Below, piece after piece: positions 9,574 through 57,960 of a stretch of DNA of 64,000 nt. The notes under the pieces are model-generated. The model did not search any database and was not told the DNA's origin. It was given only the letters and a program-made list of their open reading frames with translations. The first letter of the stretch is position 1. Every line of letters begins with the position of its first letter. The DNA comes from a bacterium (GTDB taxonomy: Bacteria > Patescibacteriota > Minisyncoccia > Phycocordibacterales > UBA2100), in assembly GCA_038128225.1 (NCBI GenBank), contig JAYPJF010000001.1:240419-304418 (forward strand). The letters are read 5' to 3'. The translations under genes were made by a program, and so were the position numbers.

Positions 9574-10038
9574 TTAGAAACCAAGCGCTTCGAAAAGCGT
9601 GAAAGTCCACGGCTCGGTAAGCTCGACTTCAGGAACGCGGCGCGCGCGGAGGAATGCGCGCACTTCTGCCGGGTCGATTCCCTCAACAGGAATAATAATG
9701 TCGGGATTCATAAAGCGAGGGGTGTCGAGAAGGAGTGTAGCGCCGTCTTCATGTTCGCGAACCCAAAATGCGTACATCTCCGGGTAACGAAACGTAAGGT
9801 CGTCAATATGAAATCCGTTTTCATCGAGTTCAAAAATAACGAGCCGTGGCTCACGCATCGCAAACATCCCAAGAGTGAATGCGGCAATGGCAATCAATAG
9901 TGCGAATAAGAAATTTTGAAACAAAATGGCTGTGAGCGCGCTCGAGACAGCGATGACGCCTAACGCCCAGTACCAATCGGCGCCACGCTCAGTATGTTTG
10001 TGCTCGGGTGCTTCCCAGCGAAGTTTCTGGGCGGGCAT
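9574..10038 (-). CDS. hypothetical membrane protein (two predicted TM helices + soluble C-terminal domain), immediately downstream of pilin gene on same strand
   Basis: ORF 154 aa; hydrophobic stretches WYWALGVIAVSSALTAILF and FLFALLIAIAAFTLGMFAM; 3-bp gap to pilin gene suggests co-transcription. No recognisable family. Confidence 0.5.
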   Translation of the reverse strand: MPAQKLRWEAPEHKHTERGADWYWALGVIAVSSALTAILFQNFLFALLIAIAAFTLGMFAMREPRLVIFELDENGFHIDDLTFRYPEMYAFWVREHEDGATLLLDTPRFMNPDIIIPVEGIDPAEVRAFLRARRVPEVELTEPWTFTLFEALGF

Positions 10039-13674: not shown

Positions 13675-14061
13675 ATGGCGAGGACTAAAGATTCTGCTCG
13701 TGTCGTGAAAGCGTATGTGACGTCACATAAAGTCCCCAAGAAGGACTTCAAAAAATTGGTCGGCACTGTGCGGGCGACGTTCGAGAAGCTTGGGCGTACG
13801 TCTGCGACCAAGACGCGAATACCAGCAGTCTCGATTGAGGCGTCGGTTCTATCCAATAGAATTGCATGTCTCGAATGTGGGCGCTGGTACAAGACACTCA
13901 AGCCCCATATTCGCCTCACACATAATATGACTGTCGAACAATACAGGAAGCGGTGGGAACTTCCATTCAGCTATCCGTTTGTGGCGCCAGAATACAGGCA
14001 GAAACGGTCACTGCTTTCTCGAAAAGCCGCACTCAGGCAGAAGTTCGAGCGAAATTCGTAG
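13675..14061 (+). CDS. MucR/Ros-family zinc-finger transcriptional regulator
   Basis: C-terminal IACLECGRWYKTLKPHIRLTHNMTVEQYRKRWELPFSYPFVAPEY matches the Ros/MucR C2H2-type motif (CLECG..fK.LKrHL...H.mtp.eYR.kW.LP..YPmVAp.Y). Start set at Met 13675; the longer ORF from 13582 overlaps the preceding gene. Confidence 0.7.
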   Translation: MARTKDSARVVKAYVTSHKVPKKDFKKLVGTVRATFEKLGRTSATKTRIPAVSIEASVLSNRIACLECGRWYKTLKPHIRLTHNMTVEQYRKRWELPFSYPFVAPEYRQKRSLLSRKAALRQKFERNS

Positions 14062-14078
14062 GTTTTTGAGTACATATA

Positions 14079-14108
14079 AGCAGCCCCGTGTGGGCTGCTC
14101 TGTTTTTG
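14079..14108 (+). terminator. intrinsic terminator after MucR-like gene
   Basis: AGCAGCCC-cgtgt-GGGCTGCT hairpin followed by ctgTTTTTg. Confidence 0.55.
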
Positions 14109-14212
14109 CTACTTCCGATTTTTCTAGCGATGCGCAAATTTAACAAGTTTAACGATAAATACATATTGACAAACGATAAGATGCAAACTAGGGCTTCTAC
14201 GTTACGGCAAAT

Positions 14213-14470
14213 ATGACGCTACGCTTGGCAAAACGAGCGAAAGCTATATTTGAAAGTTCGCAACCAGAGGAAAAACGCAAACTTTTGAGTTTCTTACTTG
14301 CGAACTCAACACTGCACGGAAAAAACCTAACGTTTACAATGCGTTCTCCCTTTGATGTGATGTTTTCTAATACCCATCATATGACTATGCGGCGAGAGTT
14401 AGATGCTGTTAGAACGTACTTTCAGAGTAGCAAAAATCATGAGTTATTCCCAAATTTCGCTATTTCCTAA
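14213..14470 (+). CDS. small hypothetical ORF (85 aa), possibly a gene remnant
   Basis: Only ORF in the 400-bp gap between the MucR-like gene and the methyltransferase; no family recognised; overlaps the methyltransferase stop. Confidence 0.25.
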   Translation: MTLRLAKRAKAIFESSQPEEKRKLLSFLLANSTLHGKNLTFTMRSPFDVMFSNTHHMTMRRELDAVRTYFQSSKNHELFPNFAIS

Positions 14471-15116
14471 ACTCAAAGACGTAAAAGTTGAAATCCTCTT
14501 TGTGTGGTTTTTTGTAAGTATTGGCTAGTGCGTACCCATTTTCTTTAGCCAACTTGAAAGGAAGACCGACATCAATATCTGCAAAGTCTGCCCAACCAAA
14601 GTAGATCTTTCCGTTCGGTTTGAGATACGCACCAACCTCCTTGAAAAACTTTTGCTTCGTCTCGTCTTCTGGGTCCCAAAACATCCGATCGATATTATCT
14701 CGCACCTCATGCTTTGTGTAAGGCGGATTACAGATAATAACATCGAATTGTCCTTCTACTTTTTCAAATACATTCGATAAGAAAAAACTGACATTTGTAA
14801 CACCTTGCGCTTGCGCATTGCGCCTACTGTTTTCTACTGCTCGCTCATTGATATCTATCCCAACTCCTTGTGCTGCACGTTTCGCAGTTGCAATCGAAAC
14901 TACTCCTGTACCGCATCCAATTTCCAAGAAGTTCTGATTTTTCGTGATCTCTACTGATCCCGCCATCAAATCAGAGTCACCAGAGGTTTGATAAACTCCC
15001 GGTTCCACTATGATTTTCATACCACAGCATTCAACTTCAAAAGGTTGACCAGTGTGTCTTTCCTCCAGTCTGTTCGCTTGACGAGGGATCGAATAAAAAT
15101 CGCTCTGTTTGATCAT
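14460..15116 (-). CDS. class I SAM-dependent methyltransferase, MTS-domain type with NPPY motif
   Basis: EIGCGTGVVSIA (SAM-binding motif I) and DVIICNPPY (motif IV typical of N6-adenine / N5-glutamine / rRNA m2G methyltransferases). Substrate cannot be assigned from sequence. Confidence 0.7.
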   Translation of the reverse strand: MIKQSDFYSIPRQANRLEERHTGQPFEVECCGMKIIVEPGVYQTSGDSDLMAGSVEITKNQNFLEIGCGTGVVSIATAKRAAQGVGIDINERAVENSRRNAQAQGVTNVSFFLSNVFEKVEGQFDVIICNPPYTKHEVRDNIDRMFWDPEDETKQKFFKEVGAYLKPNGKIYFGWADFADIDVGLPFKLAKENGYALANTYKKPHKEDFNFYVFEFRK

Positions 15117-15205
15117 TTCTTTATTTTATCAAAAATTATGTAATAAGTTCGAATCCCTCTTTCCTCAAACAAAAACAACCCTATGAATAAGGGTGTTTCT
15201 GACTG

Positions 15206-15290
15206 CGGAGAGGGTGGGATTCGAACCCACGGTCCCTTGCGAGACTCTTGTTTTCAAGACAAGTGCGATAGACCACTCTGCCACCTCTCC
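15206..15290 (-). tRNA. tRNA-Ser (anticodon TGA)
   Basis: Reverse complement reads GGAGAGG-TG-...-CTTGT-CTTGAAA-ACAAG-(long variable arm AGTCTCGCAAGGGAC)-GTGGG-TTCGAAT-CCCAC-CCTCTCC-G; 7-bp acceptor stem, TPsiC box, long extra arm typical of Ser. Confidence 0.85.
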
Positions 15291-15391
15291 ATTCCTTTCC
15301 CAAACGCGACACAATTTTCTGGAAATAGGAAATCCAGTTACTGCATAGTACGTATTTCTTGTATTACCGCAAATAATGCTATGCTTCCTGG

Positions 15392-15820
15392 GTGAAATAC
15401 ATAGGCTTAGATTTCGGAGAGAAACGAATTGGTATTGCGATCTCTGATGAAAACGGGACAATTGCGTTTCCGCACTCAGTTGTTCCAAATAACCAAGATG
15501 CCGTTAAGACCATATTGGATTTAGTCGAACATGTCCGAGCAGGGTCAGTTGTTATTGGTGATACAAAAACAGGTTCGGGAGAACCTAATAGTGTCACACA
15601 TAAGCTTAAGGAATTCATTGAACCACTTACCGCGGCTGGCTGCACCATCACCACAGTGCCCGAACTTGGTTCAACAGGGGCAGCCCGCGCGGTTTTTGCG
15701 CACGCGGAAGGAGCACCGCGAGGGGAAGTGCAATCTCCGGTATACCACACTATTGATAACCTTGACGCGCAAGCGGCGGCCGTGATTCTGCAGCGCTATT
15801 TAGATATACACAAGCGCTAA
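15392..15820 (+). CDS. ruvX: Holliday-junction resolvase-like RNase YqgF/RuvX
   Basis: N-terminal MKYIGLDFGEKRIGIAISD is the YqgF/RuvX signature. Confidence 0.85.
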   Translation: MKYIGLDFGEKRIGIAISDENGTIAFPHSVVPNNQDAVKTILDLVEHVRAGSVVIGDTKTGSGEPNSVTHKLKEFIEPLTAAGCTITTVPELGSTGAARAVFAHAEGAPRGEVQSPVYHTIDNLDAQAAAVILQRYLDIHKR

Positions 15821-15839
15821 ATACATACTCGATAAATCT

Positions 15840-16808
15840 GTGTACTATTACGGCATGCAGCAAATTTCCAGTGCTCGTGCGTGGATTGTAGTGCACGTTG
15901 TCGTGGCAGCGTTCTTTTATATGACATTTGTCAGTAGTGCATCTGCGGCAGGGTGCGACGCGGCGTATAAGCAGTGTATAGGACAGCCTGGTGCGAGTAA
16001 GTCCGCATGTATCGGGCAATGGAAATCATGCTTAACAGGACAGTGCATGAAGAGTGGGAACATATGCAATCAAGACTCTGAGTGTCAGATGTATTGTACA
16101 GAGGAAGGAACTTCAACTGGCGGAAAAATCTCATGTTGCTCAGGTGGACCGCAGATAGAACCGGGAGCTCCTAACCCGTGCCCTGACAAGATTGATGGTA
16201 AGTGTGAGGCAAAAATGCCGGAAATGATGATGGGAATGATGATGGGTGCGCCGATGCTTCCCATGCTTCCTATGATGATGCCGAAGATGGATATGCCAAT
16301 GATGATGATGCCAGACCCGTGCGAGACGGGCGGGTTTCGCTCAATTAGTGCTGATGGTACAGACCCGTGCGCAACAAAAAAGGATAAAAAATCGGCAAGT
16401 ACTACCGATGACACGCTTAAGAAGATTAAGGATGTCGCGGGGAAAAAAGATGAAACAGGGAAGTCGTATACGGAAGAGGACACTGCAAAAGAAGCAAAAG
16501 GACTTGGTTCTGTATTCGGGGCTTTCTTTGAAGGTGTAGACACAACATCTGCGCGTGACGGAGGAGACAAAACACAAGACACAACCAGCGGAGCTCTTAA
16601 CACATTTGGAAATGCCGTTTTGGGACAACAAAACACCACCGCTGTTTCTCAAACAATCGCACAGATAACCCAGGCAGTGCGCTCCGTTGCACAAACGATC
16701 ATTACAGGGTTTGACACGCTCGGTGCGCCTGCAGTGCAGCAGTTACAAAACGCACTTTCAGCAGCCACACTCGTTTTAAAGAGCCTCCTTGGTAGTCTTG
16801 GGCTCTAA
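15840..16808 (+). CDS. secreted Cys-rich / Met-rich protein (possible metal-binding)
   Basis: Hydrophobic N-terminus, ~20 Cys in first 120 aa (CDAAYKQC..CIGQWKSC..CMKSGNIC..CQMYC..), then MPEMMMGMMMGAPMLPMLPMMMPKMDMPMMMMPDPC, then Lys/Thr/Asp-rich tail. Confidence 0.55.
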   Translation: MYYYGMQQISSARAWIVVHVVVAAFFYMTFVSSASAAGCDAAYKQCIGQPGASKSACIGQWKSCLTGQCMKSGNICNQDSECQMYCTEEGTSTGGKISCCSGGPQIEPGAPNPCPDKIDGKCEAKMPEMMMGMMMGAPMLPMLPMMMPKMDMPMMMMPDPCETGGFRSISADGTDPCATKKDKKSASTTDDTLKKIKDVAGKKDETGKSYTEEDTAKEAKGLGSVFGAFFEGVDTTSARDGGDKTQDTTSGALNTFGNAVLGQQNTTAVSQTIAQITQAVRSVAQTIITGFDTLGAPAVQQLQNALSAATLVLKSLLGSLGL

Positions 16809-35213: not shown

Positions 35214-36758
35214 GTGGCATGGTACTGGTATACCCTCACAAGCGCGGCGGCCTTGTTTTTTGCATTCCTAACGCCACTGTACGCTCAGATATTTGCATGT
35301 ATCGGAATCGCGCTCTTCGCAGCGCCTCTTGATCGAGAGGTGGTTCCTAAAAGGGCAACGATCCACTGCGTTGTTGTTGCGACGGTAAGTGCAGCGGGTT
35401 CAATGTTCTGGTTTTGGGACACGCTTCCACTTACGTGGTTGGGTATATCGCATACTGCACAAGCAGTGCTTGTTGTTGGCATTACGTGGGTGATTTTGAG
35501 TATAACGTTTGGTTTGGGGTTTCTGCTTTTTCGCGCGCTTTTTTCTATCGGAAGAAGTGGCACTTGGGTCGATGTTCCATTTTTTAGCTCATTGTGGGTG
35601 ACAAGTGAGTATCTTGGGATGTGGTTATTTGCGCTTGTATCTCTCGGGCCGGGCATTTCTCTTGAACCGCATTTTAGTTTTGCTTTTGTTGGGTATCTTT
35701 TTGCAGAAAGCCCCTTTGCGTTACCGATCGCGGCATGGGGAGGAGTGTATGCACTGAGCGCGCTTGCGACATGTGCGGGGTTTATATGTGCGCGCGCCTA
35801 TACTTCATTTTGGTATAGCGCTACAGCCGCGGTACTCTTCGTCTGTTTCGTGTGGGCAGGCGCCCCTGAGCACCCCGCGAGTATTGCGGCCCACACACAA
35901 TCACTTGCGGTGCTACACACAAACATCCCGGCTCGTGCAGAGGTTGAGTCAGGCTCTCTAGAAGTCGAACGGTTGCGAGAGCTTATTGAGGAAGCTCAGC
36001 AAACAAACCCTGATCTTATTGTGGTTCCTGAAGATATTCGCCTTTTTCAGCATATCGAAAAGTTTTTTTTGAACACAGGCCCTATCCCCACGATTGGATC
36101 AACACGCACTTTTATTGAACCACCTCAAGAGCGGTTGTGGGAATATACACGCGATGGAGCACAGCTCACGCGCGCAAAGTTCTTACTGCTACCATACGGT
36201 GAGTATGTGCCATATCTCGGAGGCTTCATTGTGCATATGGTCGTAGGCGAACATGCTGTTCGGTTTGTGCAAGAAACACGAGCACAAGTGTCTGCTGATC
36301 GTGGCGACACAAGAGGCATCTTCGGTGCTTACACACGTTTTTGTTCCGAGATTCTGAGCCCTGTGTTATTCGTAGAAGACGCTCGTCGAGGTGCGCCTTT
36401 TTTATTACATCTCGCAAATTTCTCGTGGTTTCATGGGTCCGCGCTTTTGGAGCGGAGAATACTGTCTATGGCTCGCGTGCGTGCGGTGGAAGCTGACCGA
36501 TGGTTTATTTCTGCGGGCAACATAGGAGCGAGTTATGTGGTTGATGAACGAGGTGCGTTGGTTGCCAAGCGTTCCGACGAGGGAATTCTTCGTGTTGCCA
36601 TTCCGTCGCGTGCTTCAGAGACTTTGTATCAGCATGTGTACGTATACGTACCGTACTTTTTTCTTGTATATGTACTTGTCCACATAGTAATCATGACGCG
36701 CATGAGTGCGCGGTATACTGGGGCTACCTATGGACGAGAACAGCGCTCAGGTGAGTGA
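35214..36758 (+). CDS. lnt: apolipoprotein N-acyltransferase-like protein (N-terminal polytopic membrane domain + C-terminal CN-hydrolase domain)
   Basis: 6-8 N-terminal TM helices, then nitrilase-superfamily triad context: LIVVPED (Glu), KFLLLPYGEYVP (Lys), FCSEIL (Cys), as in Lnt. Confidence 0.6.
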   Translation: MAWYWYTLTSAAALFFAFLTPLYAQIFACIGIALFAAPLDREVVPKRATIHCVVVATVSAAGSMFWFWDTLPLTWLGISHTAQAVLVVGITWVILSITFGLGFLLFRALFSIGRSGTWVDVPFFSSLWVTSEYLGMWLFALVSLGPGISLEPHFSFAFVGYLFAESPFALPIAAWGGVYALSALATCAGFICARAYTSFWYSATAAVLFVCFVWAGAPEHPASIAAHTQSLAVLHTNIPARAEVESGSLEVERLRELIEEAQQTNPDLIVVPEDIRLFQHIEKFFLNTGPIPTIGSTRTFIEPPQERLWEYTRDGAQLTRAKFLLLPYGEYVPYLGGFIVHMVVGEHAVRFVQETRAQVSADRGDTRGIFGAYTRFCSEILSPVLFVEDARRGAPFLLHLANFSWFHGSALLERRILSMARVRAVEADRWFISAGNIGASYVVDERGALVAKRSDEGILRVAIPSRASETLYQHVYVYVPYFFLVYVLVHIVIMTRMSARYTGATYGREQRSGE

Positions 36759-37779
36759 CGCAAACCAGTCTAGTGCATGGATTTGGCTAGTGCTGGGTGT
36801 TGCAGCGCTCATTGGTATTTTTTATGTTGCAGGGTCCTCTGGGCCCAAAACGGATACTGCTGATGAAGATACGACCGCAGGGCACGGGCGCATCTATTTG
36901 TCATTAGTTCGGCCAAATGAGGAGCGTTTTTATCCGTACGTGATTGATGTCGCAAATCGAGAACTGCGCAAACTCGATGACGGAAGCGAGGCGATCATGC
37001 TTTTCCACAACTTCAGTGATGGGTTGGTGAGTTTTATCGGCACGACTGTTTCTGAGTATGAAAAAGAAAGAGGAGCTCTCAACAAAGCACTCCAATTTTA
37101 CGTCGCTCCTGCAACTGACCAGGATATTCCAACACTCGCGGACGCGGTGCGTGTCACAAATTCTGACCAGTATGCAAAACGGGCGCCGGATTTGTCACCT
37201 AACGGAGCGCAGTTATTGTACTCGGCCCTTCCACGGGAAGACTCGGTGATACTCGACGATGCGGAAGCGTGGGATGTATATATCGTTTCAACACAAGGGG
37301 GGAAGCCGGAGTTTGTAACACGGGGAATTTTTCCCAAGTGGCTCAACGATAGCCAGTTTGTGGTGCTAAAGAATGACGGCTTGCATATGTTTGATGTGCG
37401 CAGTGATACAGACGAGATATTGTGGGAAGTCGAAGGCGATATCGCGCTTTCGAACATGATGCTTCATGTTTCTGAAAATCGACGCGTCATTGCGTGGACC
37501 GCTCCAGACGCCGGGCTCTTGATGGTGCTGCGAATCCACTCACTCGATCCTCTTGAGGTTTCGGGAAACGAAATTTCTGAAGTCCATGGGTTTTGGCCGG
37601 TGGTTTCCCCTGATGGTGACTTTGTGGCGATTCAGGCGGTTGACTGGGGTGCACTCGAAACTGACCCAAGTCCTGAACTTCGCATCTATGATACTGCAAC
37701 CCTCACTCTCAAGGGAAGCACTGTTGATTTGAGCATGTTTGACCAGCAACGTATGTTCGTGACTGACTGGCGTGAGTAA
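36730..37779 (+). CDS. membrane-anchored beta-propeller-like (TolB/PD40-type) hypothetical protein
   Basis: N-terminal TM (WIWLVLGVAALIGIFYVAG), repeated ..SPDG..-type strands (LSPNGAQLLYSA, VVSPDGDFVAIQA); overlaps lnt-like gene end. Confidence 0.4.
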   Translation: MDENSAQVSDANQSSAWIWLVLGVAALIGIFYVAGSSGPKTDTADEDTTAGHGRIYLSLVRPNEERFYPYVIDVANRELRKLDDGSEAIMLFHNFSDGLVSFIGTTVSEYEKERGALNKALQFYVAPATDQDIPTLADAVRVTNSDQYAKRAPDLSPNGAQLLYSALPREDSVILDDAEAWDVYIVSTQGGKPEFVTRGIFPKWLNDSQFVVLKNDGLHMFDVRSDTDEILWEVEGDIALSNMMLHVSENRRVIAWTAPDAGLLMVLRIHSLDPLEVSGNEISEVHGFWPVVSPDGDFVAIQAVDWGALETDPSPELRIYDTATLTLKGSTVDLSMFDQQRMFVTDWRE

Positions 37780-37784
37780 CTGCT

Positions 37785-38684
37785 ATGAACGTGAAAAGTT
37801 TTCCCTTCGGGAACAAAAAGAGAACTGGCGCTCTTTTTTTTGCAGGCATAATTATTGTTTCGGGAATTTTAATCTGTACCGACCAGGTGTGGGCAGGCGG
37901 CGGGCCTAGCGGTGGTGGGCAAGGACCTAGTGACAGTGACCCGAATTCAGATCACGTAGGATGTGGCAACTCACACAGCCCTAATCCTGGGCGTGGTCGT
38001 GATCGCGACACTACCCCCATCGGTTGCAGAGGCAAAGACTGTGAAGGCCCGCGTACGCCCCCCGGAGGCGGAGGAGGGGGTGGTGGAGGAGGTGGCTCAA
38101 AACCAAAATCCCCACCAACAGCTTCACTTACCTGTGTTCCAGGAACAATCGACTCTGGCGAATCAGTGACACTCACGTGGCGCTGCCAAAACGCTTCATC
38201 AAGCTCGGGAACGAATTTTTCAACAGGTGGTGCGTTAACAGGAAACAAGGTTTTGCGCCCAACAAGCGCGATCACATACCAAGTTGAGTGTCGCGACGAT
38301 TCTCGTGTTGCGCGCGCATCGTGCCGCGTGAACGTATCTGACGTCAATGGTGACGACACGGGGTTTGTTGATGACATCGACGGCAGTGGAAGCGGTGGAG
38401 GTGGAAATGGTACAGGACTCGATTGGCAACTCGACATCACGGCAAGCCCGCTTCTGGTACAAGTCGGCGGTCAATCGCGAGTGAGTTGGACTTCTTCAAA
38501 CACCGAAAACTGCACTGCTTCTGGTCCAGGACTTTCATCAAACCAATCAAATGGAAGCGCAGACCTTACGATCACCGAAGAAAGCACCTACACACTTACC
38601 TGTGACACCACGCTCGGTGGCGGAGAAACTCTCGAAAGCGACAGTGTCACGGTGAAGATTATTCCGGTGTTTAGGGAACTTTAA
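37785..38684 (+). CDS. secreted Cys-framed two-domain protein, tandem paralog A
   Basis: Signal peptide, Gly-rich linker incl. poly-Gly (PPGGGGGGGGGGGS), then two ~90-aa modules each with W and paired Cys (SLTCVPG..VTLTWRCQNA..YQVECRD..CRVNV; ..SRVSWTSSNTENC..YTLTCDT..). Confidence 0.6.
   Translation: MNVKSFPFGNKKRTGALFFAGIIIVSGILICTDQVWAGGGPSGGGQGPSDSDPNSDHVGCGNSHSPNPGRGRDRDTTPIGCRGKDCEGPRTPPGGGGGGGGGGGSKPKSPPTASLTCVPGTIDSGESVTLTWRCQNASSSSGTNFSTGGALTGNKVLRPTSAITYQVECRDDSRVARASCRVNVSDVNGDDTGFVDDIDGSGSGGGGNGTGLDWQLDITASPLLVQVGGQSRVSWTSSNTENCTASGPGLSSNQSNGSADLTITEESTYTLTCDTTLGGGETLESDSVTVKIIPVFREL
38013..38679 (+). repeat. tandem direct repeat copy 1 (667 bp, identical to copy 2)
   Basis: Nucleotide-identical in all six frames to 38900-39566 (offset 887 bp); covers 3' three-quarters of paralog A. 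Confidence 0.85.
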
Positions 38685-38695
38685 TTTACAAACAT

Positions 38696-39571
38696 ATGCC
38701 GTTTACTAAAAACATAAACAGGACAACGATAGGCTTTTTTTTCGCAGCTCTTTTTGTACTCTCAGGCGCTTTTATCTATGCAGAGCAAGTGTGCGCGGGT
38801 GGTGATGGTGGCGGAGGAGGGGGTGGAACGGGTTGTGGTAACGCCGCAGGGCAGAGGGCAGGAAGGGACAGCCGCGGTGGCGGTAGAGACGACACCGACA
38901 CCCCCATCGGTTGCAGAGGCAAAGACTGTGAAGGCCCGCGTACGCCCCCCGGAGGCGGAGGAGGGGGTGGTGGAGGAGGTGGCTCAAAACCAAAATCCCC
39001 ACCAACAGCTTCACTTACCTGTGTTCCAGGAACAATCGACTCTGGCGAATCAGTGACACTCACGTGGCGCTGCCAAAACGCTTCATCAAGCTCGGGAACG
39101 AATTTTTCAACAGGTGGTGCGTTAACAGGAAACAAGGTTTTGCGCCCAACAAGCGCGATCACATACCAAGTTGAGTGTCGCGACGATTCTCGTGTTGCGC
39201 GCGCATCGTGCCGCGTGAACGTATCTGACGTCAATGGTGACGACACGGGGTTTGTTGATGACATCGACGGCAGTGGAAGCGGTGGAGGTGGAAATGGTAC
39301 AGGACTCGATTGGCAACTCGACATCACGGCAAGCCCGCTTCTGGTACAAGTCGGCGGTCAATCGCGAGTGAGTTGGACTTCTTCAAACACCGAAAACTGC
39401 ACTGCTTCTGGTCCAGGACTTTCATCAAACCAATCAAATGGAAGCGCAGACCTTACGATCACCGAAGAAAGCACCTACACACTTACCTGTGACACCACGC
39501 TCGGTGGCGGAGAAACTCTCGAAAGCGACAGTGTCACGGTGAAGATTATTCCGGTGTTTAGGGAACGCTAA
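38696..39571 (+). CDS. secreted Cys-framed two-domain protein, tandem paralog B
   Basis: Different signal peptide/N-terminal 70 aa, then identical to paralog A from TPIGCRGKDCEGP to IIPVFRE (last residue differs). Confidence 0.6.
   Translation: MPFTKNINRTTIGFFFAALFVLSGAFIYAEQVCAGGDGGGGGGGTGCGNAAGQRAGRDSRGGGRDDTDTPIGCRGKDCEGPRTPPGGGGGGGGGGGSKPKSPPTASLTCVPGTIDSGESVTLTWRCQNASSSSGTNFSTGGALTGNKVLRPTSAITYQVECRDDSRVARASCRVNVSDVNGDDTGFVDDIDGSGSGGGGNGTGLDWQLDITASPLLVQVGGQSRVSWTSSNTENCTASGPGLSSNQSNGSADLTITEESTYTLTCDTTLGGGETLESDSVTVKIIPVFRER
38900..39566 (+). repeat. tandem direct repeat copy 2
   Basis: See copy 1; identity ends one base before the stop-proximal codon (..GGGAAC t vs g). Confidence 0.85.
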
Positions 39572-40191
39572 ACCCACCCCTCACCGTTATCGATAGAACA
39601 CCATAGAACGCAGGAGGCGTACGTTCGGAAAGGCGCCCATGTCGCCGCACGTTTGATAGCCTGTTTTTCAGTCGGCATCGTACGCAAGTTATACACGTGA
39701 CGAATTCCTTTGCGTAAACCCAGGTCACCCGGCGAGAACACGTCTTCATAACCAAGACTGAACATCATAAACATTTCTGCAGTCCAGGGTCCCACACCGC
39801 GCAGAGCGCAGAGCGCGTCTCGTACTTCATGTTCTGGAGCACCGTGCAAGCGAGTAAACGAAAACTCACGAGCAACAATTTTTTGCGCAAGTTCACGAAC
39901 TGCCCGCGCTTTTGCATTTGACAGTCCGGCACTACGCAGTGTTTCGTGTTTCATGGTCGCAAGTGATTTGGGCGTCACGCGTTTCTTCGGGAATAATGCT
40001 TCAAAACGCATCCAAATAGTACGCGCGGCTTTCCCGGAAAGTTGTTGTCCCACAATACTTCGACAAAGTGACACAAAAGGGTCACGGCTAGTCTCTGGCG
40101 CTAAGCGGCCGCCTTTTTTGGTGTATGCACGTGCTTTGTCATACAAAACAGGATCGACACCTTTAAAATGACGCAATACATGGTTGGGCAT
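39568..40191 (-). CDS. DNA-3-methyladenine glycosylase II-like (HhH-GPD superfamily, AlkA type)
   Basis: HhH-GPD region LCALRGVGPWTAEMFMMFSLGYEDVFSPGDLGLRKG with catalytic Asp; upstream helix bundle. Confidence 0.7.
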   Translation of the reverse strand: MPNHVLRHFKGVDPVLYDKARAYTKKGGRLAPETSRDPFVSLCRSIVGQQLSGKAARTIWMRFEALFPKKRVTPKSLATMKHETLRSAGLSNAKARAVRELAQKIVAREFSFTRLHGAPEHEVRDALCALRGVGPWTAEMFMMFSLGYEDVFSPGDLGLRKGIRHVYNLRTMPTEKQAIKRAATWAPFRTYASCVLWCSIDNGEGWV

Positions 40192-40446
40192 ATAGGGACT
40201 GTATCATGCGCCCTTCATCGTATATACTCCATTATTTTGGACAGGAGAGGGAATACTGAAGGAGACGAAGAGTGACCAAGACAGTAAACATTCTAGCGTT
40301 CGCCTGCCTGAGATTCCCTATAAGTATCTGGGGTCCCAGGGGTGAATACCTAGGTCTCGGAGACCCATCTATGCTTGTGTCCCACATGCCGTTCATTCGT
40401 TCCCTCGGTGAAGAGGTACGGGTGGTGGAGGTGGGTGGGTGAATGA

Positions 40447-40479
40447 CAGCCGGCGTACGCGCCGGCTGTTTCTTTTTTT
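40447..40479 (+). promoter_or_regulatory. intrinsic terminator-like hairpin inside the ileS 5' leader (possible attenuator)
   Basis: CAGCCGGCG-tacg-CGCCGGCTG then TTTCTTTTTTTg, 40 nt upstream of the ileS ATG; preceded by G-rich run GGTGGTGGAGGTGGGTGGGTG. Confidence 0.5.
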
Positions 40480-40519
40480 GGACGTGTGCGGGCGGCATTG
40501 TTTTGCTAGGATAGGCAAG

Positions 40520-43378
40520 ATGGCGCAGGAAAAGAAAAGCGAAACAGCGTTGCGTGAAGAAGAGGTACTCACTTTTTGGCGCGCTGACAACACGTTTCAA
40601 AAATCACTTGAAAAAGATGCGCCCCGCGGAGAGTTTGTATTTTTTGATGGGCCTCCATTTGCAACCGGGCTTCCGCATCACGGACACCTGCTCGGGAGCA
40701 CTATTAAAGATGTGGTGGGGCGGTATGCCACTATGCGCGGGTATCGAGTGCCGCGTAAATGGGGCTGGGATTGTCACGGACTTCCTATCGAGAGCCTGAT
40801 TGAGAAGAAACTCGGTCTCAAAACAAAAAAAGATATTCTCGAGCTGGGTATCGACACGTTCAATCGTGCGGCGCGCGAAGCGGTGATGGAATTCGCGCAG
40901 GACTGGGAAAAATATGTTGAACGCATCGGGCGGTGGGTGGACTTTAAGAATTCGTACAAAACGATGGACAATAGCTACGTCGAGGCAGTGTGGTGGGCTG
41001 TCAAAAAACTCAACGAGCGTGGTTTATTGTACGAAGGAAAGAAGGTGCTGATGTACTGCCCGCACTGTGAGACTCCTTTGGCGAAAGCTGAAATTCAGAT
41101 GGATAATACGTATAAAGATGTCACGGAAGATGCGCTTACGGTAAAATTTAAAATTAAAAACCCTAGCGCGCACGCACTCCCCGGGAACACGTTCCTTCTT
41201 GCGTGGACAACGACACCGTGGACCCTGCCAGGAAATGTTGCGCTCGCGGTTGCTGCAGATAAAACGTATGGTGTGTATGTTCAAGACGGGGAACAGGTAA
41301 TCGTGGTAGTCGAACGTGCTGAATCCCTTGGGTTATCTACACCAACAAAAACATTCATGGGGAGCGAGCTTATCGGTATTGAATATGAGCCTCTGTATCT
41401 CTTGAAAGCAGTCGAAGCTTATAAAGGCAAAAAACATCTCGTTCTCCCAGCAGATTTCGTTACTACCACTGACGGCACAGGCATTGTGCACACGGCGGTC
41501 ATGTACGGAGAAGATGATTTCGTATTGGGGCAGAAGGAAGGTTTGCCCATGGTTCAGATGTTAGATGCGGGGGGTAGTTACAATAGCGATGCTCCTGAAT
41601 TGGTACGCGGCATGTATTTCAAGAAAGGCGGCAAACAGGTAACAGAGGACTTAGAAAAGCGCGATCTCATCTTCAAAAAAGAATCTCACACGCACAGCTA
41701 CCCTCACTGCTATCGTTGTGGGAACGCGCTCATTTACAACGCGGTTGCTTCTTGGTTTGTGGATATTCAGAAAATTAAGCAAGCGCTTTTGGATCAAAAT
41801 GAAAACGTTACGTGGGTGCCAGCGCATCTTAAGCACGGACGCTTTCAACACATTGTCGAGAACGCACCTGATTGGACGATCTCGCGCAATCGTTTCTGGG
41901 CATCACCGCTTCCCATATGGAAGTGCGATTCGTGCAAGAAAACCGACATTATCGGGTCGGTTCAAGAATTGAAAGCGCGGGCACAGGAGCCGGTGTCTGA
42001 CACCATTGATTTACATCGACCACACGTGGATATGTTCACACTCACTTGTGCCTGTGGCGGGGTGATGAAAAGAATTCCGGAAGTTGTTGACTGCTGGCTC
42101 GAGTCTGGCTCTATGCCTTTTGCGCAACACCATATGAGCGGAGAGACAATTGCCGAACCGCCTGTAGGAGACTTTATCGCGGAATATATAGCACAGACGC
42201 GCACATGGTTTTATTACACGCATGTAATGGGGGTCGCGCTTTTTGATCGGCAGGCATTTAAGGCGGTTGTTTCAACGGGAACTATTCTTGCCGCAGACGG
42301 CGAAAAAATGAGCAAATCAAAAGGAAACTACACTGACCCGCTTATAAATCTTGATCGGTATGGCGCTGACGCGTTTCGCTACTACATGATGGCAACACCA
42401 GTGATGCATGCGGAAGATTTTAGTTTTCGTGACGAAGATTTGCGTGAAGCGCATAGTCGCATCATCAACATGCTATGGAATACGTATCAGTTCTATACTC
42501 TTTTCAAAGATACCGTTGCGCACACAGACCAGAGTCCACGCACGCACATACTCGACCGTTGGGTGATGGCACGTCTTGACGAAGTGGTGATTGAGGTCAC
42601 CGATTCTATGAATGTGTTCGACCTGCCGCGCACATGCCGCGCTCTTCGTGATTTTATCGAAGATTATTCCACATGGTACGTGCGGCGCTCGCGCGAGCGT
42701 GTGAAAAGTGGCGGGTCATCAGATGCACTTGCGACACAGCGAGAAGTGCTTGTGACACTCTCAAAACTATGTGCGCCCATCATGCCGTTTATCGCAGAAA
42801 GTGTTTATCGCGGGGTGACAGGCGAGGGGAGCGTGCATCTTACAGAGTGGCCGAGCGCCACGGTGCGCCCGGAAGATGTCGATGTGCTCGCGGGAATGAA
42901 ATTCTCGCGCGAAGTAGTCTCACTTGGTCTTACTGAACGCGCACAACATGGGATAAAGGTGCGGCAACCACTTGCGCGGCTTACGGTGCGCACTCCCTTG
43001 GTTGCGCTCTGGGGTGAGTTGGCGGAGATCATTCGCGAAGAACTTAATGTCAAAAATATTGAACTTGAAGACCGAGAGGTAAAAGAAGGTGAGGCTCGTG
43101 TTGATTTGGATACCAATCTTACTCCTGAGCTTGTGCGCGAAGGAGAGGTGCGCGATCTGCTCCGTATCGTGCAAGAACTGCGTAAAAAGAAAGGCCTTGC
43201 CCCAAGTGACCAAACAGCACTTTTAGTACAAGCGGAAGGGCAGGGCCGCGTATTCATGGAATTTGCACGAGAAGAGCTGAGACGCGTGGCGTCGGTACAA
43301 CGTATCGATTATGTGGCTTCAGTACGGGGAGAAAAAATCACGATCGAAGGTGGTAGTGTAAACGTTGCACTGCAATAG
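40520..43378 (+). CDS. ileS: isoleucine--tRNA ligase
   Basis: HIGH (PFATGLPHHGHLLG), KMSKS (KMSKSKGN), CP1 editing domain, ~950 aa. The ORF track's Met at 40439 would translate through the terminator hairpin; start moved to MAQEKK. Confidence 0.9.
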   Translation: MAQEKKSETALREEEVLTFWRADNTFQKSLEKDAPRGEFVFFDGPPFATGLPHHGHLLGSTIKDVVGRYATMRGYRVPRKWGWDCHGLPIESLIEKKLGLKTKKDILELGIDTFNRAAREAVMEFAQDWEKYVERIGRWVDFKNSYKTMDNSYVEAVWWAVKKLNERGLLYEGKKVLMYCPHCETPLAKAEIQMDNTYKDVTEDALTVKFKIKNPSAHALPGNTFLLAWTTTPWTLPGNVALAVAADKTYGVYVQDGEQVIVVVERAESLGLSTPTKTFMGSELIGIEYEPLYLLKAVEAYKGKKHLVLPADFVTTTDGTGIVHTAVMYGEDDFVLGQKEGLPMVQMLDAGGSYNSDAPELVRGMYFKKGGKQVTEDLEKRDLIFKKESHTHSYPHCYRCGNALIYNAVASWFVDIQKIKQALLDQNENVTWVPAHLKHGRFQHIVENAPDWTISRNRFWASPLPIWKCDSCKKTDIIGSVQELKARAQEPVSDTIDLHRPHVDMFTLTCACGGVMKRIPEVVDCWLESGSMPFAQHHMSGETIAEPPVGDFIAEYIAQTRTWFYYTHVMGVALFDRQAFKAVVSTGTILAADGEKMSKSKGNYTDPLINLDRYGADAFRYYMMATPVMHAEDFSFRDEDLREAHSRIINMLWNTYQFYTLFKDTVAHTDQSPRTHILDRWVMARLDEVVIEVTDSMNVFDLPRTCRALRDFIEDYSTWYVRRSRERVKSGGSSDALATQREVLVTLSKLCAPIMPFIAESVYRGVTGEGSVHLTEWPSATVRPEDVDVLAGMKFSREVVSLGLTERAQHGIKVRQPLARLTVRTPLVALWGELAEIIREELNVKNIELEDREVKEGEARVDLDTNLTPELVREGEVRDLLRIVQELRKKKGLAPSDQTALLVQAEGQGRVFMEFAREELRRVASVQRIDYVASVRGEKITIEGGSVNVALQ

Positions 43379-56931: not shown

Positions 56932-57960
56932 TTACGCAATTGTAGTGAGGTGGCCGCGAATTGTCTTAAGGATCGCATCAGCAACTTTCGGATTTTCTTT
57001 TAAAAACGAGCGTGCGGCATCGTACCCGCGGCCCAACGCTATTTCTTCAAATTTGTATGACGAACCTGATTTGGTTACGGTGCCAAACTTTTCACCGAGC
57101 GCCAAGAGCTCCCCTTCGCGAGAGATTCCTTCGTTATACATGAGATCAAATTCAGTCGTTCGGAATGGGGCAGCGACTTTATTTTTGACGATCTTCACAC
57201 GGTGTCGACCCCCCATAACCTCGTCGCCTTTTTTAATTTGTGCGATACGGCGTATATCGATTCGGACAGAAGTGTAAAACTTGAGCGCCTTACCACCTGG
57301 AGTCGTGTGTGGATTAACAAAAAATACTACAAACTGCATAAGAAATTTGTTGATGTAAATAACAACCCTTTTTTTTAGTGCCACAACAGCCGGAACTTTT
57401 ATTAGCGCTTGCGACATAAGGCGGGCTTGCTTACCAACGTGCTGCGCTCCCATATCACCCTCAATCTCGTCTTTGGGCGTAAGAGCAGCCACGGAGTCAA
57501 TGACGATAACATCGATTTTTCCAGATCTCACGAGCGACTCAACAATTTCAAGCGCTTGTTCACCATGGTCTGGTTGCGAAATAAGAAGGTCTTCAACTTT
57601 AACACCAATTCGTTTCGCATACTCGGGATCCATGGCGTGCTCAGCATCGATGTATGCGCAAATGCCGCCTGTTTTCTGCGCTTCAGCAACCGTATGAAGT
57701 GCAAGTGTTGTTTTTCCTGAAGATTCTGGCCCAAAAATCTCAACAATGCGGCCGCGTGGCATACCACCAATACCTAGTGCCCAGTCCACACCAACGGAAC
57801 CTGTTGAGATAGCCCCAATGCTTACTTTTGGTTTTTCACCCAAGGTCATTATAGACTCATCGCCAAATTTTGTTTTGATTTCCGAAATTGCGCGCTCAAT
57901 TTCTTTGAAACTTGGTTTACTTACCTCAGTCGGTTCTTCAACTTTTTTCTTTGCAGCCAT
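56932..57960 (-). CDS. recA: recombinase RecA
   Basis: Walker [24 protein letters not shown], full-length; L2-loop region unusually hydrophobic (see findings). Confidence 0.9.

What the first reader, a model, noticed from the sequence alone, without database searches (positions are those of the whole stretch)
38013..39566. Perfect 667-bp tandem duplication creating two secreted paralogs with different N-termini
Positions 38013-38679 and 38900-39566 are identical at every base I compared, and all six-frame ORF translations coincide. The two genes differ only in their first ~70 codons (signal peptide and Gly-rich linker) and in one base just before the stop. Zero divergence over 667 bp, including synonymous sites, implies very recent duplication, ongoing gene conversion, or a repeat mis-resolved in assembly. 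A cassette-like layout with a variable 5' head and constant 3' body is reminiscent of surface-protein variation systems.
Basis: seen in the sequence. Interest (0 to 1): 0.65.

Follow-up and report, generated by a model that had tools for sequence, protein, structure and literature searches.

The report
Tandem secreted paralogs homogenised by conversion
Two neighbouring genes for secreted Ig-like proteins in an uncultivated Patescibacteria (CPR) bacterium share an exactly identical 667-base 3' part, and this is best explained by ordinary gene conversion between the ancestral gene and an extra, older-looking copy, not by a programmed surface-variation system.

Summary
Bases 38013-38679 and 38900-39566 are identical at all 667 positions, and this is the only long repeat in the window. 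The tandem layout is not an artefact of one assembly. Independent k=31 Logan assemblies of several sequencing runs break exactly 30 nt inside the repeat at both outer borders, as expected when the shared body has two different left and right contexts. A related species has one gene at this position. Its head, last codon and downstream DNA match gene B, so B is the ancestral copy and A is the extra one. The A and B heads are homologous but only 56% identical, against 100% for the body. That rules out a simple recent duplication and points to a recent non-reciprocal transfer, most likely B into A. RecA is encoded in the window. I found no sign of a cassette, inversion or DGR variation system. 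The variable part is the signal peptide and a disordered linker, not the exposed Ig domains. Exact identity could still be partly an effect of assembler collapse. Side observations may be more novel: a conserved extreme C-terminal tag (P-x-F/W-x-E-F/I) on this Patescibacteria protein family, recurrent neighbours, and an in-frame deletion variant in one sample.

The parts
35214..36758 (+). Lnt-like protein (apolipoprotein N-acyltransferase-like, CN_hydrolase domain), first gene of the conserved Lnt / propeller / Ig-protein cluster
   Evidence: Pfam CN_hydrolase E 4.5e-07, LNT_N E 1e-4. The same cluster occurs in L007, L009, L017, L048 and L049.
36730..37779 (+). Membrane-anchored TolB-like beta-propeller protein (349 aa), directly upstream of gene A
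   Evidence: AF2 model: TM helix 16-33 followed by an all-beta fold, pTM 0.62. Best PDB fold hits are TolB (2ivz_C, E 5.6e-10). It sits directly upstream of a family member in 7 loci.
37785..38684 (+). Gene A (299 aa): signal peptide/TM helix, disordered Gly-rich linker, two Ig-like domains, C-terminal tail ..IPVFREL. This is the extra, lineage-specific copy.
   Evidence: ORF; AF2 model; generic tandem-Ig fold hits; no counterpart of its head in the single-copy relative L048.
37785..38012 (+). Head A (76 codons): signal peptide plus linker. 55.7% nt identical to head B and 47.4% to the head of the single-copy ortholog.
38013..38679 (+). Repeat copy 1 (the body, within gene A), 667 nt
   Evidence: Exact identity to 38900-39566. 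Logan contig L045/L050 ends at 38042, exactly 30 nt inside.
38064..38095 (+). GGN Gly-codon microrepeat inside the body (second copy at 38951-38982). This is the kind of sequence used as microhomology in the deletion variant.
   Evidence: TRF; deletion junction in L047
38680..38899 (+). Unique spacer between the repeat copies: the last 2 nt of A's final codon, its stop codon, an 11-nt intergenic gap, and head B (68 codons, 38696-38899)
   Evidence: No promoter-like or terminator-like site lies between A and B.
38696..39571 (+). Gene B (291 aa), with the same architecture and tail ..IPVFRER. This is the ancestral, positionally orthologous copy.
   Evidence: Its head motif TGCGNAAGQRAGRDSRGG, terminal Arg and downstream DNA match the single gene of L048. 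It is uniformly 62-64% nt identical to that ortholog over both head and body.
38900..39566 (+). Repeat copy 2 (the body, within gene B), 667 nt
   Evidence: Logan contigs L040, L041, L043 and L044 all end at 39537, exactly 30 nt inside.
39568..40191 (-). Convergent HhH-GPD DNA glycosylase. Its stop codon overlaps the stop of gene B by 4 nt. It marks the right edge of the ancestral locus.
   Evidence: Pfam HhH-GPD E 3.7e-17. L048 has the same arrangement.
56932..57960 (-). RecA, the homologous-recombination machinery needed for gene conversion, encoded in the same window
   Evidence: Pfam RecA E 1.4e-123. RecO_N is on the identical contig L040.

Best explanation
Genes A and B are real tandem paralogs of a Patescibacteria-specific family of secreted proteins. 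Each has an N-terminal signal peptide, a disordered Gly/Cys-containing linker, two Ig-like beta-sandwich domains and a short conserved C-terminal tail. They sit in an operon-like cluster behind an Lnt-like enzyme and a membrane-anchored TolB-like beta-propeller. Gene B is the ancestral gene of the locus. Gene A is an additional copy whose head diverged long ago or diverged fast. The 667-nt body of one copy, most likely B, was recently copied over the other by RecA-dependent non-reciprocal homologous recombination (gene conversion, or the equivalent unequal exchange between sister chromosomes). This erased all divergence from an arbitrary point in the linker (38013) to the edge of paralog homology, 2 nt before the stop codon. 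Shown here: the exact identity, the sharp identity step, the two-context repeat in independent assemblies, and the orthology of B. Inferred: the recombinational mechanism, its direction and its recency. The shared direct repeat also makes the locus prone to rearrangement.
For: (1) The body is 667/667 identical, while the homologous heads are 55.7% nt identical and the step between them is abrupt. (2) The repeat has two contexts in independent data. Right-side Logan contigs from SRR26337526, DRR404984 and DRR685536 (100% identity), and from SRR23967303 (a 94%-identity strain), all stop at 39537. The left-side contig from DRR685536 stops at 38042. Both stops are exactly 30 nt inside the repeat. 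That is what a k=31 graph does at a repeat border; k=31 for Logan is my own knowledge, and the exact 30-nt overhangs agree with it. (3) The related species L048 (propeller 77% aa, HhH-GPD 80% aa) has one gene between the propeller and HhH-GPD on an unbroken contig. Its head, its terminal ..VFRER and its 3' flank are B-like. (4) Segment trees disagree. In the head, B groups with the ortholog (61.7% against 47.4% for A). In the body, A equals B, and both are 63.7% identical to the ortholog, which matches B's head and the flanking genes at about 70%. The body is therefore B-type, suggesting a B-to-A direction. (5) A keeps its own last codon (Leu, closer to the family's hydrophobic C-terminal residue), its own stop and its own 3' spacer. 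A was therefore a complete gene before homogenisation. (6) RecA and RecO are present. (7) Strains 0.3-0.7% diverged exist. At that divergence 2-4 differences would be expected in 667 nt, so the homogenisation is about as young as, or younger than, those strain splits (inference).
Against: No reads or long reads could be examined. A graph assembler that walks one collapsed repeat node twice would print two identical copies even if the real copies differ at a few sites, so 'zero divergence' is not independently verified. The body-only contigs of the Logan assemblies could not be retrieved. The three-taxon head comparison is near saturation (third-position identity 0.30-0.39) and crosses low-complexity sequence, so it cannot decide whether A pre-dates the species split or diverged fast afterwards. 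The direction of transfer rests on similar divergence levels only. Copy numbers above two cannot be excluded.
Confidence: 0.7

Rival explanations
1. Assembler collapse. The two tandem copies are real but only nearly identical, for example 97-99.5%. The perfect identity arises because a de Bruijn or consensus assembler merged them into one node and emitted that node twice.
For: The locus forms a simple loop graph: X - body - spacer - body - Z. That graph can be resolved from short reads only by reusing one body node. Logan contigs break at the repeat borders, which shows that short-read graphs do collapse it. The 99.7% strain contig L042 ends at 39535 rather than 39537, so the right border of identity is not the same in all strains.
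Against: Even 97-99% identity next to 56%-identical heads would still require recent homogenisation, so this changes the degree and not the kind of explanation. Nothing in the sequence itself indicates collapse. The exact 30-nt overhangs show that at least the terminal 30-mers of the body are truly shared in several samples.
Confidence: 0.2
2. A plain, very recent tandem duplication of the whole gene, with the 5' heads diverging or being replaced afterwards.
For: The layout is tandem and head-to-tail with period 887, and the right border of the repeat coincides with the gene end.
Against: The heads are homologous but 44% different at the nucleotide level and carry several indels, while 667 nt show zero differences. 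No mutation process diverges 200 nt that far and leaves the adjacent 667 nt untouched. A has its own last codon and 3' spacer. The duplication is already present in a 94%-identity strain.
Confidence: 0.05
3. A programmed surface-protein variation system: cassette recombination, an invertible element or a DGR, with variable heads on a constant body.
For: These are secreted, probably surface-exposed proteins that share a constant part and differ in another. Structural variants of the locus exist in natural populations (the L047 deletion variant).
Against: There are only two copies in 64 kb, and both are complete, in-frame ORFs with start codons and signal peptides. There are no inverted repeats. 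There are no TR/VR-type adenine mismatches, because the copies are identical. The flanking genes within about 10 kb are housekeeping, with no recombinase or reverse transcriptase annotated on the identical contigs. The variable part is the cleaved signal peptide and a disordered linker, while the folded Ig domains that would face the outside are invariant. PADLOC and NCBIfam gave no hits.
Confidence: 0.03
4. A population chimera: two alleles of a single-copy gene from co-existing strains, with head A in one strain and head B in another, were wrongly strung together in tandem.
For: Metagenomic samples contain several strains of this organism, at 100%, 99.3-99.7% and 94% identity.
Against: Allelic heads would form a bubble, not a loop. 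The right-side contigs stop 30 nt inside the body in four samples, which needs a second right-hand continuation of the body end. The only candidate is the spacer leading into head B. Such a molecule can only be a tandem arrangement. The single-copy relative L048 assembles straight through.
Confidence: 0.03

Closest known systems
Staphylococcus aureus lpl tandem lipoprotein-like paralog cluster (Tsuru & Kobayashi 2008, PMC2568036)
   Same: These are tandem paralogs of exported proteins in which a conserved stretch inside each ORF serves as a site of homologous recombination. As a result, the 5' and 3' parts of one ORF have different histories. The unit that stays together is the 3' end of one ORF, the intergenic DNA and the 5' end of the next ORF. 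Here that unit corresponds to 38680-38899.
   Different: Here there are two copies, not a large cluster. The shared tract is the whole 3' two-thirds of the gene and is 100% identical. The organism is an uncultivated Patescibacteria bacterium, and the proteins are Ig-like, not lipoproteins (no lipobox).
Gene conversion between outer-membrane or surface-protein paralogs, such as Brucella omp2a/omp2b and Helicobacter pylori babA/babB (papers listed: PMC7050475, PMC3960876; details from my own knowledge)
   Same: RecA-dependent non-reciprocal transfer homogenises segments of paralogous envelope-protein genes. This gives mosaic genes with sharp identity steps.
   Different: Those paralogs are often dispersed or inverted, and the conversion creates functional or antigenic diversity. 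Here the conversion removes diversity in the folded domains and leaves only the signal peptide and linker different.
Concerted evolution of duplicated housekeeping genes such as tufA/tufB in enterobacteria (my own knowledge)
   Same: Paralogs within a genome stay near-identical while orthologs between species diverge. Here the body is 100% identical within the genome and 63.7% identical to the ortholog.
   Different: tuf copies are dispersed and homogenised over the full length. Here the copies are tandem and only the 3' 74% is homogenised.
Cassette-type antigenic variation such as Neisseria pilE/pilS, Borrelia vlsE and Mycoplasma genitalium mgpB/MgPar (PMC2169797 listed; otherwise my own knowledge)
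   Same: Repeated segments of a surface-protein gene are exchanged by gene conversion.
   Different: Those systems have one expression site plus many silent, truncated cassettes, and they vary the exposed region. None of that is seen here.

Membership tests
Gene conversion / concerted evolution between tandem paralogs | A tract of far higher identity than the adjacent homologous sequence, with an abrupt boundary | tested here: met
   100% over 667 nt against 55.7% in the aligned heads; the step is at 38013/38900
Gene conversion / concerted evolution between tandem paralogs | Paralogs within the genome are more alike than orthologs between related genomes, and segment phylogenies disagree | tested here: met
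   Body: A = B, and both are 63.7% identical to the L048 ortholog. Head: B to ortholog 61.7%, A to ortholog 47.4%, A to B 55.7%. This rests on only one outgroup.
Gene conversion / concerted evolution between tandem paralogs | Both copies really exist in the genome and are not an assembly artefact | tested here: met
   Independent Logan contigs from four or more runs end exactly 30 nt inside both outer repeat borders. Read-level depth was not testable.
Gene conversion / concerted evolution between tandem paralogs | Repeated or ongoing homogenisation: paralogs identical within each of several diverged strains | not testable with these tools
   The body contigs of the 94% strain (SRR23967303) could not be retrieved. 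The data show only that its terminal 30-mer has two contexts.
Gene conversion / concerted evolution between tandem paralogs | Homologous-recombination machinery is present | tested here: met
   RecA at 56932-57960, E 1.4e-123; RecO_N on the identical contig L040
Cassette-type antigenic variation (pilE/pilS-like) | One expression locus plus several silent, truncated or promoterless cassettes | tested here: not met
   The 64 kb window holds only two copies, and both are complete ORFs with start codon and signal peptide. The rest of the 376-kb contig was not available.
Cassette-type antigenic variation (pilE/pilS-like) | The exposed, folded part of the protein is what varies | tested here: not met
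   The folded Ig domains (aa 112-185 and 215-292) are identical. The differences lie in the signal peptide and the disordered linker, where pLDDT is below 50.
Diversity-generating retroelement | A template/variable repeat pair that differs at adenines, plus a nearby reverse transcriptase | tested here: not met
   The repeat pair has no mismatches. No RT is annotated within about 10 kb on the identical contigs L040 and L045.
Invertible-element phase variation | Inverted repeats flanking a promoter or gene segment, plus a site-specific recombinase | tested here: not met
   0 inverted repeats of 30 nt or more in 36000-42000, and 0 of 40 nt or more in the whole window
Pfam bacterial Ig-like domain families (Big_2 and others) | Score above the family's gathering threshold | tested here: not met
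   Big_2 scores 13 bits against a cutoff of 22.8. No family reaches E <= 0.1 for A among 12 relatives. The fold is nevertheless a tandem Ig-like beta-sandwich.
Bacterial lipoproteins (possible substrates of the neighbouring Lnt-like enzyme) | A lipobox [LVI][ASTVI][GAS]C at the end of the signal peptide, conserved across the family | tested here: not met
   Read directly from the sequences: A has ..GILICTDQVWA/GGG, B has ..EQVCA/GG, and P0003 has no Cys. There is no conserved lipobox Cys. A Val-x-Ala/Gly signal-peptidase-I-type site is conserved instead.

The most novel reading that the evidence does not exclude
The duplicated genes may belong to an undescribed Patescibacteria-specific surface-protein system. 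The family is defined by an extreme C-terminal tag, consensus V-x-V-x-[LI]-x-P-x-[FW]-x-E-[FIQ]-COOH, on a free tail that follows a terminal Ig-like domain. The tag is found on proteins of 230 to more than 1000 aa. Members recurrently sit beside a membrane-anchored TolB-like beta-propeller and an Lnt-like acyltransferase, or convergent to a conserved ~153-aa two-TM protein. On this reading the tag would be a recognition signal for sorting, anchoring or processing, and the locus would be a place where such cargo genes are duplicated, homogenised and deleted. No Pfam, NCBIfam or PADLOC model and no paper in the searched library describes it.
Probability: 0.25. Interest if true: 0.6.

Novelty: new member of a known kind. 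Interest (0 to 1): 0.3.

Why it matters
The finding as stated is a clean, independently corroborated example of partial gene conversion between tandem paralogs in a reduced CPR genome. It shows that RecA-type homogenisation and repeat-mediated rearrangement operate in these organisms, and that such repeats fragment short-read assemblies at predictable points. It does not reveal a new mechanism. The more interesting lead is the protein family itself. It carries a widely conserved but unannotated C-terminal tag and has recurrent neighbours (an Lnt-like enzyme, a TolB-like propeller and a small two-TM protein). These could point to an uncharacterised way of handling cell-surface proteins in Patescibacteria, whose envelope biology is poorly known.

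Tried and rejected
- **Exact-protein look-ups of A, B and P0001** found no contig. The locus was reached through its neighbours instead.
- **Genome-contig scans.** The scan with the single protein found nothing. The 12-sequence alignment was too diverse to scan with. The 5-sequence alignment gave 32 distant loci.
- **Metagenome-contig scan** gave one distant hit only, so there is no second full assembly of this population.
- **First homolog search** was saturated by poly-Gly words, with 8000 candidates and 13 hits. Repeating it without the Gly run gave no close relatives.
- **Protein family libraries.** Pfam, NCBIfam and PADLOC gave nothing significant for A, B or the propeller.
- **Fold search** returned only generic two-Ig ectodomains such as Fc receptors and complement MG domains, so it gives no functional lead.
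- **Literature searches** for Patescibacteria plus Lnt, or plus sorting signal, returned 0 papers.
- **Cluster member P0015** (53 aa), listed as the representative of gene B's cluster, is unrelated in sequence and was ignored as a database oddity.
- **Lipoprotein substrates of the Lnt-like neighbour** were considered and rejected, because the family has no conserved lipobox.
- **Sigma-70 promoter and terminator scan** showed nothing between A and B and no excess over shuffles.
Full report
**1. Observation**

A direct comparison at offset 887 shows that window 38013-38679 and 38900-39566 are identical over exactly 667 nt, and identity stops at both ends (first seen). No other repeat of 40 nt or more, direct or inverted, exists in the 64 kb window apart from a weak 41-nt pair near 63 kb.

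The copies lie in two adjacent + strand ORFs. Gene A is 37785-38684 (299 aa) and gene B is 38696-39571 (291 aa), separated by 11 nt. The repeat starts at a codon boundary in both genes, after 76 codons in A and 68 in B. It ends at the first base of the last sense codon. The next two bases differ, giving CTT (Leu) in A and CGC (Arg) in B, and both genes then stop with TAA.

**2. What the genes encode**

No Pfam, NCBIfam or PADLOC family is significant for these proteins. An AlphaFold2 model built on 12 relatives shows four parts:
- an N-terminal hydrophobic helix (aa 14-30);
- a disordered Gly/Pro/Cys-containing stretch (aa 32-103);
- two confident beta-sandwich domains (aa 112-185 and 215-292, pLDDT about 90), joined by a disordered linker;
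- a free 7-residue tail.

Foldseek finds only generic tandem Ig-like ectodomains. The n-region and h-region are followed by V-W-A|GGG in A and V-C-A|GGD in B. From the sequence this looks like a signal-peptidase-I site (inference). There is no conserved lipobox.

The Ig-like domain is common: 2293 representatives reach E <= 1e-3, many of them giant multi-repeat proteins. The small-protein relatives come from Patescibacteria, including Candidatus Kaiserbacteria and Paceibacterota. On that basis the window is from a CPR bacterium. The source is a 376,516-bp NCBI contig.

**3. The tandem repeat is real**

The neighbouring proteins occur, with exactly the same sequence, in Logan assemblies of several public sequencing runs.

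| Contig | Run | Identity to window | Side | Ends at window position |
|---|---|---|---|---|
| L040 | SRR26337526 | 100% | right (HhH-GPD) | 39537 |
| L043 | DRR404984 | 100% | right | 39537 |
| L044 | DRR685536 | 100% | right | 39537 |
| L041 | SRR23967303 | 94% | right | 39537 |
| L045/L050 | DRR685536 | 100% | left (Lnt-propeller) | 38042 |

Both end points are exactly 30 nt inside a repeat copy, the right-side contigs in copy 2 and the left-side contig in copy 1. A k=31 de Bruijn contig stops k-1 bases into a sequence that has a second continuation. (k=31 for Logan is my own knowledge, and the exact 30-nt overhangs agree with it.)

The body end therefore has a second right-hand neighbour, and the body start has a second left-hand neighbour, in several independent samples. 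The only arrangement that supplies both is body - spacer - head B - body, which is the tandem layout. Two alternatives are thereby rejected: a single-copy gene, and a chimera of two alleles.

These data cannot show that the interiors of the two copies are identical base for base. A graph assembler would print a collapsed node twice. I could not retrieve the body-only contigs or any reads.

**4. History of the locus**

A related species (Logan SRR24236059, L048; propeller 77% aa and HhH-GPD 80% aa identical) has the same gene order but a single Ig gene of 294 aa on an unbroken contig. Three features of that gene match gene B:
- its head contains TGCGNAAGQRAGRDSRGG;
- it ends ..VFRER;
- its 3' flank reads ACCCA.CC.

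B is therefore the positional ortholog and A is the extra copy. A more distant Kaiserbacteria genome also has one copy behind Lnt and the propeller.

Codon-aligned nucleotide identities:

| Comparison | Identity |
|---|---|
| Head A vs head B | 55.7% |
| Head A vs ortholog head | 47.4% |
| Head B vs ortholog head | 61.7% |
| Body A vs body B | 667/669 |
| Body vs ortholog body | 63.7% |
| Flanking genes vs ortholog | about 70% |

B is thus evenly diverged from the ortholog along its whole length. A has a much older-looking head fused to a B-type body.

A plain recent duplication cannot produce a 44% difference next to a 0% difference. A recent non-reciprocal transfer of the body is required, most simply B into A. 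Its right end lies where A/B homology ends. A keeps its own last codon, stop and 3' spacer, which shows it was already a complete gene. RecA (56932-57960) and RecO are encoded nearby. Strains that differ from the window by 0.3-0.7% exist. At that divergence about 2-4 differences would be expected in 667 nt, so the homogenisation is roughly as young as those splits (inference). With one outgroup and near-saturated sites, I cannot tell whether A pre-dates the species split and was lost in L048, or arose later and its head evolved fast.

**5. Is it a variation system?**

I found none of the defining features:
- there are two complete ORFs, not an expression site with silent cassettes;
- there are no inverted repeats;
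- there are no mismatches between the copies, so no DGR-type adenine pattern;
- the surrounding 10 kb on each side is housekeeping, including ArgRS, thymidylate kinase, NUDIX, IleRS, RecO and other tRNA synthetases;
- no promoter-like or terminator-like site lies between A and B.

What differs between A and B is the signal peptide and the first part of a disordered linker. The folded domains are invariant.

The closest described situations are tandem paralog clusters that recombine at an internal conserved stretch, such as the S. aureus lpl cluster. There the 3' end, the intergenic DNA and the next 5' end behave as the evolutionary unit (PMC2568036). Other analogues are gene conversion between envelope-protein paralogs in Brucella and Helicobacter (papers listed; details from my own knowledge).

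**6. Structural polymorphism**

In sample SRR30758783 (99.3% strain), contig L047 runs from ArgRS through Lnt and the propeller into head A as far as 37903 (..VWAGG). It then continues directly with 30 nt that match the body tail at 38616-38645 and 39503-39532 (GGETLESDS..). The 31st base back does not match the body. This is an in-frame deletion junction at Gly-codon microhomology. It predicts a product of about 61 aa consisting of the signal peptide, GGG, and ETLESDSVTVKIIPVFRE plus a final residue (Leu or Arg, depending on which body tail is joined). The contig stops k-1 nt into the shared sequence, which means the normal body is also present in that sample. The deletion is either 714 nt inside A or 1601 nt from A into B. 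In the same sample the right-side contig ends at 39535, not 39537, so the right limit of identity differs by 2 nt in that strain.

**7. Family-level side observations**

*C-terminal tag.* Among the homologs collected, 30 of 32 occurrences of P-x-[FW]-x-E-[FIQL] are at the extreme C-terminus. Almost every Patescibacteria homolog in the fetched loci ends ..V.V.L.P.F.EF, in proteins from 230 to more than 1000 aa. A and B, and the L048 ortholog, carry a variant..IPVFREL..IPVFRER and ..LPVFRER.

*Upstream neighbours.* The TolB-like propeller has a TM helix followed by an all-beta fold (pTM 0.62), and its best PDB fold hits are TolB. It sits directly upstream of a tag-bearing gene in the window and in L007, L009, L011, L017, L048 and L049. 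An Lnt-like gene usually lies next to it, while the outer flanks differ.

*Downstream neighbour.* A conserved ~153-aa two-TM protein lies convergent to the tag-bearing gene in at least eight loci, often overlapping it by 4 nt. In the window its homolog (9577-10020, minus strand) faces the 3186-aa ORF 9-9569. That ORF carries related Ig domains but not the tag.

No model or paper describing these associations was found. They are leads, not conclusions.

**8. Verdict**

- **Observation:** confirmed.
- **Interpretation:** partly supported. Gene conversion is favoured. A plain recent duplication, a false second copy and a variation system are not.
- **Kind:** a new member of a known kind of event.
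- **Interest:** low to moderate for the finding itself. The unannotated C-terminal tag and its gene neighbourhood are the part worth a separate look.

Noticed in passing
window 38661-38681 and 39548-39568; homologs in L005-L020, L028, L048, L049: The family carries a conserved tag at the extreme C-terminus, consensus V-x-V-x-[LI]-x-P-x-[FW]-x-E-[FIQ]-COOH. 30 of 32 motif occurrences in the homolog set are terminal. It occurs on proteins of 230 to more than 1000 aa, sits on a free tail after the last Ig-like domain, and is not covered by Pfam or NCBIfam.
   Followed up: partly
window 35214-39571; L007 145-3720; L009 6471-10779; L017; L048; L049 1682-5599: A recurrent gene cluster of Lnt-like acyltransferase, membrane-anchored TolB-like beta-propeller and tag-bearing Ig protein appears in distantly related Patescibacteria with different outer flanks. 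This suggests functional coupling.
   Followed up: partly
window 9577-10020 (-); L001 3720-4181; L005 8513-8983; also L008, L009, L010, L012, L013, L016: A conserved ~153-aa two-TM protein with no Pfam hit lies convergent to, and often 4 nt overlapping, the 3' end of tag-bearing Ig genes in at least eight loci. In the window it faces the giant ORF 9-9569 instead of genes A and B.
   Followed up: partly
L047 6206-6346 (Logan SRR30758783); window 37903 joined to 38618/39505: A natural in-frame deletion variant joins the signal peptide of gene A, at Gly-codon microhomology, directly to the last ~20 codons of the body. Both Ig domains are removed. The normal body is also present in the same sample.
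   Followed up: partly
window 9-9569 (+): A giant ORF of 3186 aa has no Pfam hit. It carries Ig-like domains related to A and B at aa 2839-3103 and ends ..ILNSSI without the C-terminal tag. The region has a raised GC content of about 57% at 6-8 kb.
   Followed up: no
window 37887-37910 and 38795-38830; relatives P0002, P0003, P0006, P0158: The predicted mature N-terminus starts with an oligo-glycine run (A|GGG, A|GGD, A|GGGG) in many family members. It is followed by a conserved GCGN motif and a small Cys-containing stretch. Its significance is unknown.
   Followed up: no
window 39568-39571; L048 2785-2788: The stop codons of gene B (TAA, + strand) and the convergent HhH-GPD glycosylase (TAG, - strand) overlap by 4 nt. 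The arrangement is conserved in the related species.
   Followed up: no
L042 end (window 39535) versus L040, L041, L043 and L044 (39537): In the 99.7% strain of SRR30758783 the right-hand contig reaches 2 nt further into the repeat. The 3' limit of A/B identity therefore differs slightly between strains.
   Followed up: no
window 14001-16000: There is a local GC dip to 43.7% with negative GC skew around tRNA-Ser (15205-15290, -) and a small methyltransferase gene (14460-15116, -). This could be an insertion next to the tRNA.
   Followed up: no
protein cluster of gene B (P0014/P0015): The 90%-identity cluster that holds gene B lists an unrelated 53-aa Logan peptide (P0015) as its representative. 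This may be why B was not returned in the first homolog search. It looks like a database artefact.
   Followed up: no
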